A stretch of DNA of 20,098 bases from Anaerolineae bacterium. Lineage in GTDB: Bacteria; Chloroflexota; Anaerolineae; JAKLPW01. The translations under genes and the position numbers were made by a program. Below, one piece after another: positions 10,256 through 10,455 of the stretch. The stretch is taken from assembly GCA_022013675.1 (NCBI GenBank), contig JAKLPW010000312.1, positions 1 through 20,098 on the forward strand, in the 5' to 3' direction. Within the stretch, counting starts at the first letter, position 1. Each line of letters starts with the position of its first letter. Under the pieces are notes generated by a model. That model saw only the letters and a list, made by a program, of their open reading frames with translations, did not search any database and was not told the DNA's origin.

Positions 10256-10359
10256 CTCGGTCGGGAGACCTTCGCTATCAGAGGGGGGAGCCGCTCGGTC
10301 GGGAGACCTTCGCTATCAGGGGTCGGGAGACCTTCGCTATCAGAGGGGGGTCGCGAAGG
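10256..10359. repeat. Triple direct repeat of CTCGG-TCGGGAGACCTTCGCTATCAG-AGGGGGG. The 21-bp cores are at 10261-10281, 10299-10319 and 10323-10343, followed by a CCTTCGC/GCGAAGG hairpin and a T-rich run.
   Basis: Exact 21-bp core x3 with 38- and 24-bp periods. It sits in the 212-bp gap between LacI-2 and the solute-binding-protein gene. Confidence 0.7.
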
Positions 10360-10455
10360 AAAGGAAGGGGGTGGTCGCACGTAGGATTTTCGGTTTTTTG
10401 GTCGCTAGTGTTCTCGGAGCTTCACCTATTTCTCAACCTAAGGAGGAAAGTAGTA

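What the first reader, a model, noticed from the sequence alone, without database searches (positions are those of the whole stretch)
10256..10455. Triple direct repeat (21-bp core x3) plus hairpin and T-run in the regulator-to-transporter intergenic region
TCGGGAGACCTTCGCTATCAG occurs three times (periods 38 and 24 bp). Each copy is flanked by CTCGG and a G-run, immediately after the LacI-2 stop. The last copy's CCTTCGC pairs with a downstream GCGAAGG, followed by GGATTTTCGGTTTTTTGG, about 60 nt before the SBP RBS. These are not palindromes, so they do not look like LacI operators. Candidates are a tandem-site regulator array, a transcription attenuator or riboregulator controlling operon entry, or a small REP-like repeat family.
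Basis: seen in the sequence. Interest (0 to 1): 0.55.

Follow-up and report, generated by a model that had tools for sequence, protein, structure and literature searches.

The report
Variable tandem copies of dispersed repeat
The three repeats are tandem copies of a short element scattered through the non-coding DNA and phages of one uncultured Anaerolineae lineage; copy number here runs from 3 to 11 between strains, so it looks like REP/MIRU-type repeat DNA, not a dedicated switch for the sugar-transport operon.

Summary
GGTCGGGAGACCTTCGCTATCAG occurs three times exactly (10259, 10297, 10321; periods 38 and 24), against none in shuffles.

It is not specific to this operon. The same 25-30 nt module, 100% identical, sits at unrelated intergenic sites in other metagenome contigs. 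These include a spacer beside an IS256-type element and two phage contigs. There it often pairs with an inverted partner to form a stable hairpin, and it is often tandemly amplified.

At the orthologous lacI2-SBP spacer the copy number is 3, 3, 4, 4, 4, 6, 6 and 11. Five of those contigs encode an identical SBP. More distant Anaerolineae orthologues have none.

The array has no excess RNA structure (z +2.3).

The real LacI palindromes overlap a 12/12 consensus promoter upstream of lacI-2 (9144-9198). The one conserved element in the spacer is a stand-alone super-Shine-Dalgarno block (10363-10377, -24.4 kcal/mol), 93 nt before the SBP start. It recurs in 17 of 21 orthologous leaders and resembles STAB-SD.

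Verdict: a new, lineage-specific interspersed repeat family forming a VNTR. The kind is known and interest is low to moderate.

The parts
10256..10281 (+). Repeat copy 1 (CTCGG + GGTC-GGGA-GACC mini-hairpin + TTCGCTATCAG tail)
   Evidence: 28 nt are 100% identical to copies in the unrelated loci L002 and L004.
10282..10293 (+). Inter-unit linker AGGGGGGAGCCG. It is the shortened remnant of the roughly 25-nt linker (AGGGGGGGGCTCGGTCGAGAGCCG) of the roughly 49-52-bp unit seen in sister strains.
   Evidence: Comparison with L030-L034 arrays.
10294..10319 (+). Repeat copy 2
   Evidence: GCCGCTCGGTCGGGAGACCTTCGCTATCAG, 30 nt, is identical in L002 and L004.
10321..10343 (+). Repeat copy 3 (minimal 24-bp unit, no CTCGG)
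   Evidence: TRF reports period 24 x 2.0 over 10297-10343.
10344..10359 (+). G-run and GCGAAGG: the start of the non-repeat block shared by all orthologous spacers.
   Evidence: The pairing partner is not conserved in distance, and the arm is mutated to GCGCAGG in L029.
10358..10378 (+). Stand-alone super-Shine-Dalgarno block GGAAAGGAAGGGGGTGGTCGC, 93 nt upstream of the SBP ATG, with no usable start codon after it (STAB-SD-like)
   Evidence: Duplex energy with GAUCACCUCCUUUCU is -24.4 kcal/mol, the strongest in the window on both strands (next best -18.1). An equivalent site at -76 to -123 is present in 17 of 21 orthologous leaders, each with p<=0.02 against shuffles.
10384..10401 (+). T-rich stretch GGATTTTCGGTTTTTTGG. 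It is conserved within the lineage and is not a terminator tail.
10440..10458 (+). True SBP ribosome-binding site AAGGAGG and ATG (10456)
   Evidence: The protein starts with a lipoprotein-type signal, MKGNKFVSAVVVLVVLVMALTSC.
9144..9198 (+). Consensus promoter TTGACA-17-TATAAT (9144-9172) with two LacI-type palindromes: O1 9150-9165 TCCGAAACGTTTGGGA and O2 9182-9198. This is the likely control point of lacI2 and, by inference, the downstream transporter genes.
   Evidence: It is conserved in L029-L032.
9227..10243 (+). LacI-2 (338 aa, LacI HTH plus periplasmic-binding-protein fold)
11882..11902 (+). A second dispersed module, CAGCAAGCAGCGCCCCTACTC, in the SBP-permease spacer
   Evidence: 21/21 identical to L002 2032-2052.
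11915..11955 (+). Strong hairpin after the SBP gene (GACAGAGCCGGGAA...TTCCCGGCTCTGTTTC)
   Evidence: Sequence read directly. It is conserved in L029-L033.

Best explanation
The triple repeat is a local tandem amplification of one arm of a lineage-specific, interspersed, mosaic repeat family. The host is an uncultured Anaerolineae (Chloroflexota) lineage, and its phages carry the family too.

The basic module is about 26 nt: CTCGGTCGGGAGACCTTCGCTATCAG. It holds a 4-5-bp mini-hairpin with a GGGA loop plus a tail. Elsewhere it pairs with a diverged inverted partner, GTTGGGTGAGGTCTCCTGACCGAAC, to give a REPIN/BIME-like long hairpin. Either arm is prone to tandem reiteration.

At this locus only the direct arm is present. 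It behaves as a minisatellite with 3 to 11 copies and units of 24, 38 or about 50 bp. Expansion and contraction most likely happen by replication slippage or unequal recombination (inferred).

The array sits in the lacI2-SBP spacer. That spacer is probably transcribed as part of a lacI2-SBP-permease-ATPase-GH38 transcript started at the operator-controlled promoter at 9144-9172 (inferred). The array itself carries no operon-specific regulatory information.

The functional signals nearby are the LacI palindromes at the lacI2 promoter and a conserved stand-alone super-SD at 10363-10377. The super-SD probably protects or loads the SBP mRNA in the manner of STAB-SD (inferred).
For: **Dispersal**
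- An exact 19-mer scan found the module in four JGI metagenome contigs, three of them unrelated loci.
- L002 carries it in a repeat-rich spacer into which an IS256-type element with its own terminal inverted repeats has inserted.
- L003 carries it between a DUF2961-like gene and a dehydrogenase gene. L004 carries it upstream of an unrelated 686-aa gene.
- It also occurs in two IMG/VR contigs, L035 and L037. L035 encodes a head-protease, an HNH endonuclease and a replication-initiator-like protein.
- 25-30 nt are 100% identical between the window and these loci.

**Inverted-partner architecture**
- The L002 98-nt unit folds at -45.8 kcal/mol, z = -4.1, with 0 of 200 shuffles as good.

**Copy-number variation at the orthologous spacer**
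- Window 3, L029 3, L030/L031/L034 4, L001/L033 6, L032 11.
- L030-L034 all encode the identical SBP, P0003.
- The independent assemblies of the window and L029 agree, and so do L030, L031 and L034.

**Lineage restriction**
- None in 24 orthologous loci (about 170 kb) of Anaerolineae at 68-79% SBP identity.
- None in 185,579 species-representative genomes.

**No local function detectable**
- Fold z-scores are +2.3 (+ strand), +0.96 (- strand) and +0.28 for the array alone.
- 0 promoter-like and 0 terminator-like sites in 9900-10800. No Rfam hit in the spacer.

**Real regulatory signals lie elsewhere**
- A 12/12 promoter with two palindromes at 9144-9198.
- The super-SD.

**General repeat instability in this lineage**
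- Other spacers differ by repeat insertions between strains.
- The GH38 gene carries in-frame 48-bp and 7-bp (in-frame as 21-bp) repeat expansions that are absent from the L030 strain.
Against: - The whole-genome copy number could not be measured, because no complete genome of the lineage was accessible. Only about 10 independent sites were seen, and the loci were found by searching for the repeat itself.
- Within about 30 kb of unbiased sequence around this operon the family occurs only once.
- Copy numbers come from short-read metagenome assemblies, which can mis-assemble tandem repeats.
- The near-perfect identity of the core, both between copies and between strains whose flanking non-coding DNA differs by about 7%, implies homogenisation or selection. 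Some sequence-specific interaction, with a mobilising enzyme or a binding protein, is therefore not excluded.
- Co-transcription with lacI2 rests only on the absence of a promoter or terminator match.
Confidence: 0.8

Rival explanations
1. The array is a functional part of the intercistronic RNA. Transcribed repeats together with the adjacent super-SD would form a processing and stability module. Strain-level copy-number changes would then tune the LacI-2:SBP expression ratio, as in a contingency locus.
For: - The array lies directly 5' of the conserved super-SD: it ends at 10343 and the SD block starts at 10358.
- No promoter or terminator separates lacI2 from the SBP gene.
- Copy number varies between strains.
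- MIRU loci, a close analogue, are also hypothesised to be transcribed within operons (PMC3635867).
Against: - The array shows no conserved structure and no excess folding.
- The same module occurs at unrelated loci in both orientations relative to the neighbouring genes.
- More distant orthologues keep the super-SD without any repeats.
Confidence: 0.1
2. The array is a set of tandem binding sites for a specific transcription factor, for example one of the two LacI paralogues, that controls entry into the transporter operon.
For: - Three identical direct repeats lie between a regulator gene and its presumed target.
- The core sequence is held identical across strains.
Against: - LacI-family operators are palindromes. 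Two good ones exist at the lacI2 promoter, and distant relatives carry the same type upstream of the SBP gene.
- LacI-1 also has a LacI-type HTH (sequence read).
- Copy number (3-11) and spacing (22-52 bp) are not held constant.
- The module is dispersed to unrelated genes, a spacer beside an IS, and phages.
Confidence: 0.04
3. The region is a transcription attenuator, an intrinsic terminator or a riboswitch-like leader built from the last repeat, GCGAAGG and the T-run.
For: A 7-bp complement (10331-10337 with 10353-10359) and a downstream T-rich stretch do exist.
Against: - The T-run begins 24 nt after the stem, and the terminator scan finds nothing.
- The region is less structured than shuffles, z = +2.3.
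- No Rfam match, even at E<=1.
- The arm is mutated in L029. The stem partner is degenerate and about 100 nt away in L001, and 33 nt away in L030.
Confidence: 0.03
4. The copies are iteron-like or phage-related protein-binding repeats. Chromosomal copies would mimic repeats next to a phage replication-initiator-like gene and act as decoys, or as recombination or integration sites.
For: - In phage contig L035, 3 tandem cores (period 22-24) and 5 tandem partners lie next to a gene that hits a PHROG 'replication initiation protein' family.
- The family is denser in L035, at least 5 sites in 12 kb, than around the operon.
Against: - The PHROG hit covers only 55 residues, and there is no Pfam support.
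- The family also lies inside or beside structural genes in L035, and in ordinary chromosomal spacers.
- Spacing and copy number are irregular.
Confidence: 0.03

Closest known systems
REP / BIME elements of Enterobacteria and Pseudomonas, including REPIN doublets
   Same: - Short, extragenic and dispersed, and often just downstream of a coding region.
- Built as mosaics of two diverged arm types in inverted orientation with other small motifs.
[quoted passage not shown]
- Copy number differs between strains.
- The inverted pair forms a stable hairpin.
   Different: - There is no GTAG or CGTC terminal tag on either strand.
- The single module has only a 4-5-bp stem.
- The copy at this locus is a head-to-tail array of one arm, an arrangement that is rare for REPs (PMC3733652).
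- No RAYT transposase could be looked for.
- The family also occurs in phage contigs.
MIRU-type minisatellites (mycobacterial interspersed repetitive units; Supply et al. 1997, as cited in PMC3635867)
   Same: - Direct tandem units of tens of base pairs.
- Present at several intergenic loci, typically inside operons and presumed to be transcribed.
- Copy number varies between closely related strains.
   Different: - There is no sequence relationship.
- Units here are 24-52 bp and irregular.
- No small ORF overlaps the flanking stop and start codons.
- Other members of the family occur as inverted pairs, which MIRUs do not.
STAB-SD 5' mRNA stabiliser of Bacillus thuringiensis cry3Aa. This applies to the neighbouring block 10358-10378, not to the repeats.
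   Same: - A strong Shine-Dalgarno-like sequence about 100 nt upstream of the start codon, with no ORF attached.
- It lies downstream of a distant promoter. The cry3Aa transcript starts at -558 and is processed to a stable form protected by STAB-SD near -125 (PMC12970973; Agaisse & Lereclus 1996).
   Different: - The phylum is Chloroflexota, not Firmicutes.
- Neither processing nor stabilisation has been tested.
- Complementarity to the anti-SD is longer, up to about 13-14 nt, including G.U pairs.
LacI-family operators
   Same: None for the repeats. The palindromes at 9150-9165 and 9182-9198 fit the family pattern.
   Different: The repeats are direct, non-palindromic and variable in number.

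Membership tests
REP (GTAG- or CGTC-tagged repetitive extragenic palindromes, as defined in PMC3733652) | Terminal GTAG or CGTC tetranucleotide next to the stem-loop | tested here: not met
   Neither CTCGGTCGGGAGACCTTCGCTATCAG nor its reverse complement contains GTAG or CGTC (sequence read directly).
REP (GTAG- or CGTC-tagged repetitive extragenic palindromes, as defined in PMC3733652) | Self-complementary stem of 5-13 bp within each unit | tested here: inconclusive
   Only GGTC/GACC pairs (4 bp; 5 bp in the AGGTC...GACCT units), around a GGGA loop.
REP (GTAG- or CGTC-tagged repetitive extragenic palindromes, as defined in PMC3733652) | Many dispersed extragenic copies per genome | tested here: inconclusive
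   About 10 independent sites were seen across contigs. No complete genome was available to count copies.
REPIN / RAYT system | Two inverted copies that form a long hairpin | tested here: inconclusive
   Met at L002, L004, L035 and L037 (L002 unit z = -4.1). Not met at the window locus, which has direct copies only and no partner within 3 mismatches.
REPIN / RAYT system | A cognate single-copy RAYT (IS200-like Y1 transposase) flanked by the repeats | not testable with these tools
   The genomes of the lineage could not be scanned. No such gene is present in the window or in L035.
MIRU-like intergenic minisatellite (VNTR) | Head-to-tail units in an intergenic spacer of an operon, with copy number varying between close strains | tested here: met
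   3, 3, 4, 4, 4, 6, 6 and 11 copies at the same spacer. Five of these contigs encode an identical SBP.
MIRU-like intergenic minisatellite (VNTR) | The same unit is present at several loci in the genome | tested here: met
   Found in L002, L003, L004, L035 and L037. That these contigs belong to the same lineage is inferred from a second shared module and from the shared sample series.
MIRU-like intergenic minisatellite (VNTR) | Sequence homology to mycobacterial MIRUs, and small ORFs coupled to the flanking genes | tested here: not met
   The sequence is unrelated. Units of 38 and about 50 bp are not multiples of 3, and the array starts 13 nt after the lacI2 stop.
LacI-family operator | A palindrome of about 14-20 bp with a central CG | tested here: not met
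   No inverted repeat was found in 10100-10600. The palindromes lie at 9150-9165 and 9182-9198 instead.
Intrinsic terminator / attenuator | A GC-rich stem followed immediately by a U-run, with conserved alternative structures | tested here: not met
   The scan found 0 sites. There is a 24-nt gap between stem and T-run. Fold z = +2.3. The stem is not conserved.
Iterons of a replication origin | Regularly spaced direct repeats of 17-22 bp next to an initiator gene | tested here: not met
   Spacing is irregular (24, 38, about 50 bp). No replication gene lies near the window locus. Copy number is hypervariable.
STAB-SD-type stand-alone Shine-Dalgarno (for 10358-10378) | Strong anti-SD complementarity far upstream of the start codon, with no associated ORF | tested here: met
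   -24.4 kcal/mol at -93. It is the best site in the window on both strands and recurs in 17 of 21 orthologous leaders. The only start codon is a GTG (10371) that overlaps the SD-like block itself.
STAB-SD-type stand-alone Shine-Dalgarno (for 10358-10378) | Stabilises the downstream mRNA by binding the 30S subunit | not testable with these tools
   This needs mRNA half-life measurements or 5'-end mapping.

The most novel reading that the evidence does not exclude
The repeats belong to an actively homogenised mobile family shared between Anaerolineae chromosomes and their phages, mobilised by an enzyme not yet identified. At this locus the transcribed array, working with the adjacent conserved super-SD, would act as a strain-variable dial on processing or stability of the SBP mRNA. 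That would be a contingency-type control of a mannoside-uptake operon, and the first STAB-SD-like system outside Firmicutes.
Probability: 0.1. Interest if true: 0.6.

Novelty: new member of a known kind. Interest (0 to 1): 0.3.

Why it matters
For annotation, the result removes a tempting false lead. The repeats are not operators and not an attenuator. The control region of this mannoside-utilisation cluster is the operator-bearing promoter upstream of lacI-2.

More broadly, the result documents a previously undescribed interspersed mosaic repeat family in Anaerolineae. For Chloroflexi, the REP survey read here (PMC3733652, 2013) lists GTAG-type REPs, and the only member of the phylum named in the passages read is Thermomicrobium roseum. 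The family is shared with co-occurring phage contigs and forms a strain-level VNTR. That could serve as a strain-typing marker in metagenomes, and it warns of likely mis-assembly at such sites.

The by-product may be the more useful lead: a conserved stand-alone super-Shine-Dalgarno in the leaders of this SBP family across Anaerolineae. It suggests ribosome-mediated mRNA protection or standby loading in a phylum where post-transcriptional control is essentially unstudied.

Tried and rejected
- **Known RNA families.** Rfam at gathering thresholds over the whole window and at E<=1 over 9900-10800 gave nothing in the spacer. The only hits were two spurious lncRNA matches inside the SBP gene.
- **tRNA or tmRNA.** None found.
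- **Species-representative genomes.** The exact 19-mer gave 0 hits, so the lineage has no representative carrying the repeat.
- **Exact-sequence look-ups of window proteins.** The SBP, ATPase and permease gave nothing. Going through homologue ids P0002 and P0003 worked.
- **Are the repeats the ends of the IS256-type element in L002?** Rejected. The IS has its own 36-nt terminal inverted repeats at 384-419 and 1817-1852, and the repeats lie outside them. A related IS copy, L036, has no repeats nearby.
- **Do L004 and L035 share the same 686-aa gene?** Rejected. The two proteins are unrelated.
- **Promoter or LacI operator in the conserved block 10345-10455.** None found.
- **Conserved structured leader downstream of the super-SD.** The leaders share no sequence beyond the SD block itself, so no covariance model was built.
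- **Viral scan with the L002-type partner 20-mer.** 0 hits.
- **CRISPR reading.** There are no spacers between units.

Full report
**1. Observation**

The window holds three exact copies of GGTCGGGAGACCTTCGCTATCAG at 10259, 10297 and 10321, with start-to-start spacing of 38 and 24 nt. None of 100 dinucleotide-preserving shuffles gave a match. Tandem Repeats Finder reports the last two copies as a perfect 24-bp repeat.

The array begins 13 nt after the LacI-2 stop (TAG 10241-10243) and ends 113 nt before the SBP start (ATG 10456). CCTTCGC (10331-10337), GCGAAGG (10353-10359) and the T-rich stretch (10384-10401) exist as described.

Two details are off. Only copies 1 and 2 are preceded by CTCGG. 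The T-run starts 24 nt after the putative stem.

**2. Gene context**

Pfam gives the following order:

| Coordinates | Gene |
|---|---|
| 7813-9003 | LacI-like regulator |
| 9227-10243 | LacI-2 |
| 10456-11829 | SBP_bac_8 solute-binding lipoprotein |
| 11978-12916 and 12922-13986 | two permeases |
| 13987-15087 | MalK-type ATPase |
| 15113-18832 | GH38 alpha-mannosidase |

The window is a complete 20,098-bp contig of an NCBI MAG labelled Anaerolineae bacterium (P0001). The nearest species-representative genomes are Anaerolineales, Thermoflexales and Promineifilaceae MAGs at 68-79% SBP identity.

**3. The repeat is dispersed**

An exact 19-mer from the core is absent from 185,579 species-representative genomes. 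It occurs in four JGI metagenome contigs.

- L001 is the orthologous lacI2-SBP spacer.
- L002, L003 and L004 are unrelated loci.
- In L002 the module lies in a repeat-rich spacer that has been split by an IS256-type element with its own 36-nt terminal inverted repeats.
- In L003 it lies between a DUF2961-like gene and a dehydrogenase gene.
- In L004 it lies upstream of an unrelated 686-aa gene.

Between the window and these loci, 25-30 nt (GCCGCTCGGTCGGGAGACCTTCGCTATCAGAG) are 100% identical. A second module, CAGCAAGCAGCGCCCCTACTC (window 11882-11902), is shared with L002.

Two IMG/VR contigs, L035 and L037, come from the same sample series as the sister strains and also carry the family. L035 encodes a head-protease, an HNH endonuclease and a replication-initiator-like protein. 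It has at least five separate sites, including three tandem cores next to five tandem inverted partners (340-620) and two copies inside the head-gene ORF. L037 shows the same mosaic, with tandem partner arrays.

**4. Architecture of the family**

Outside the window the core usually faces a diverged inverted partner, GTTGGGTGAGGTCTCCTGACCGAAC. The 98-nt composite unit of L002 folds at -45.8 kcal/mol, z = -4.1, and none of 200 shuffles folds as well.

The family is therefore a mosaic of two arm types plus small accessory motifs (CTGATAGCTGAAAGC and TCAGCNN runs). Either arm tends to be reiterated in tandem. At the window locus only the direct arm is present, and no partner exists in the window.

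Each core has only a 4-5-bp stem (GGTC/GACC) around a GGGA loop. The array as a whole has no excess folding (z = +0.28).

**5. Strain-level copy-number variation**

Homologue look-ups recovered seven more versions of the same spacer.

| Contig | Copies | Note |
|---|---|---|
| Window | 3 | |
| L029 (GCA_043825035.1) | 3 | SBP about 100% identical to the window's; independent assembly |
| L030 | 4 | encodes SBP P0003 |
| L031 | 4 | encodes SBP P0003 |
| L034 | 4 | encodes SBP P0003 |
| L001 | 6 | |
| L033 | 6 | encodes SBP P0003 |
| L032 | 11 | encodes SBP P0003 |

L030-L034 all encode exactly the same SBP (P0003), which is 94% identical to the window's. Where the array is long, the unit is about 49-52 bp: GCTCGGTCGAGAGCC + core + AGGGGGG. 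The window's 38- and 24-bp periods are shortened versions of that unit.

The flanks are conserved: the lacI2 3' end on one side and the block from GGGGTCGCGAAGG to the SBP start on the other. The 24 more distant orthologous loci (about 170 kb) contain no copy.

The caveat is that these are short-read assemblies. Against that, independent assemblies agree (window with L029; L030 with L031 and L034).

**6.

- *Operators.* The repeats contain no inverted repeat. Two LacI-type palindromes, TCCGAAACGTTTGGGA (9150-9165) and TCCCAAGCGTTTTGGGA (9182-9198), overlap or follow a perfect TTGACA-17-TATAAT promoter at 9144-9172 upstream of lacI-2. Two distant relatives carry the same kind of promoter plus palindrome upstream of their SBP gene.
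- *Attenuator or terminator.* No terminator-like or promoter-like site was found in 9900-10800. The spacer folds worse than shuffles (z = +2.30 on the + strand, +0.96 on the - strand). There is no Rfam hit. The CCTTCGC/GCGAAGG pairing is lost in L029 (GCGCAGG). Its partner is 33 nt away in L030, and about 100 nt away and degenerate in L001.
- *Binding-site array.* Number (3-11) and spacing (22-52 bp) are not maintained, and the module sits next to unrelated genes in either orientation.

**7. What is conserved in the spacer**

The strongest complement to the 16S 3' tail (GAUCACCUCCUUUCU, assumed to be the canonical tail) in the whole window, on both strands, is GGAAGGGGGTGGTCG at 10363-10377. 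Its duplex energy is -24.4 kcal/mol, against -18.1 for the next best site and -11.1 for the true SBP SD.

It lies 93 nt upstream of the SBP ATG. The only start codon near it is a GTG that overlaps the block itself.

A comparable stand-alone site ((A)AAGGAGGTGAT(C), -16 to -25.5 kcal/mol) lies at -76 to -123 in 17 of 21 orthologous leaders, each with p<=0.02 against shuffles. The rest of those leaders is not alignable. The A-to-G differences (GGAGG to GGGGG, GATC to GGTC) keep G.U pairing with the anti-SD.

This matches the anatomy of STAB-SD in B. thuringiensis cry3Aa. There a long primary transcript is processed to a stable form protected by an SD-like sequence near -125 (PMC12970973; Agaisse & Lereclus 1996, cited in PMC5737220).

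By inference, transcription from the operator-controlled promoter at 9144 runs through lacI2 and the repeat array. The super-SD then protects or loads the SBP message. None of this RNA-level model has been tested.

**8. Mechanism and classification**

The best-supported reading is a lineage-specific interspersed mosaic repeat family whose arms expand and contract locally. The likely mechanism is slippage or unequal recombination.

Repeat instability is general in this lineage. Other spacers differ between strains by repeat insertions (223 vs 493 bp, 161 vs 417 bp, 0 vs 116 bp). The window's GH38 gene carries in-frame 48-bp and 7-bp (in-frame as 21-bp) repeat expansions that are missing from the L030 strain.

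The core stays essentially identical across copies and strains, while the flanking non-coding DNA differs by about 7%. That points to homogenisation or to a sequence-specific process such as mobilisation, which I could not test.

The family works like REP/BIME clusters and MIRU minisatellites. It fails the GTAG/CGTC tag test for REP superfamilies (PMC3733652) and has no sequence relation to MIRUs. I therefore file it as a new member of the general kind 'interspersed intergenic repeats' and not as a member of either named family.

**9. Verdict**

The 'REP-like family' option is right, and the regulatory options are not supported. The finding itself is of low to moderate interest. The conserved stand-alone super-SD inside the same coordinates is the more promising lead.

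Noticed in passing
window 10358-10378: Stand-alone super-Shine-Dalgarno block, 93 nt upstream of the SBP start. It is the strongest anti-SD complement in the window (-24.4 kcal/mol). A comparable site is present in 17 of 21 orthologous SBP leaders across Anaerolineae. It resembles STAB-SD.
   Followed up: yes
window 9144-9198: Perfect sigma-70 consensus promoter (TTGACA-17-TATAAT) upstream of lacI-2. One LacI-type palindrome lies between the hexamers and a second just downstream. It is conserved in the sister strains, which suggests an autoregulated lacI2-transporter transcript.
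   Followed up: partly
window 5868-6089; L030 1742-2274; L031 7843-8335: A different dispersed element: a GTAG-containing hairpin (TTCGTAGTAG...CTACTACGAA, window 5940-5992) flanked by 28-bp direct repeats CCACGAATTGCACGAATTAACACGAAAA. The same hairpin is inserted twice in the lacI1-lacI2 spacer of the L030/L031/L032 strains but not in the window. It is a possible true REP-type family.
   Followed up: partly
window 15754-16027 and 18341-18530 (inside the GH38 ORF 15113-18832): In-frame tandem repeat expansions: 48 bp x 5.7, encoding ARRDARDPDRQMHHGG-like units, and 7 bp x 27 (63 bp x 3), encoding GGRRMED-like units. Both are absent from the orthologue in strain L030 (1107 aa against 1239 aa).
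   Followed up: partly
window 11830-11977; L030 4980-5396 and 7397-7512: Other spacers of the operon differ between strains by inserted repeats. SBP-permease is 161 bp in the window against 417 bp. Permease-ATPase is 0 bp against 116 bp, the insert being a GGTGACCGGCAC...GTGCCGGTCACC hairpin that also occurs in phage contig L035 at about 7785. A strong hairpin follows the SBP gene (window 11915-11955).
   Followed up: partly
L035 6784-6817 (inside ORF 5691-7751, - strand): Two copies of the repeat core lie inside the predicted head-protease/major-head gene of a phage contig. This phage carries the host-type repeat family at five or more sites in 12 kb.
   Followed up: partly
window 7440-7560 and 6790-6854: More short tandem repeats: GAGGCGTTAGTGCTACG x2 and AAGGATGAC x3.2 in the spacer upstream of lacI-1, and a 15-bp x 4.3 repeat (GCCGGTAGGGTCTCC) inside the unannotated ORF 6162-7115 (- strand).
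   Followed up: no
window 10534-10618: The SBP N-terminus, after the lipoprotein signal, is a 12-bp-periodic (V/I)EKE-rich linker. Comparable V/E-rich linkers occur in several of the orthologues.
   Followed up: no
L007, L023 and L024, about 215-225 nt upstream of the SBP start: These three orthologous leaders lack the -100 super-SD. In L007 and L023 an SD (TAGGAGG[T/A]GCGT) precedes a two-codon mini-ORF, ATGCAGTGA; in L024 the SD is degenerate (TAGGAGGCCGCCT).
   Followed up: no
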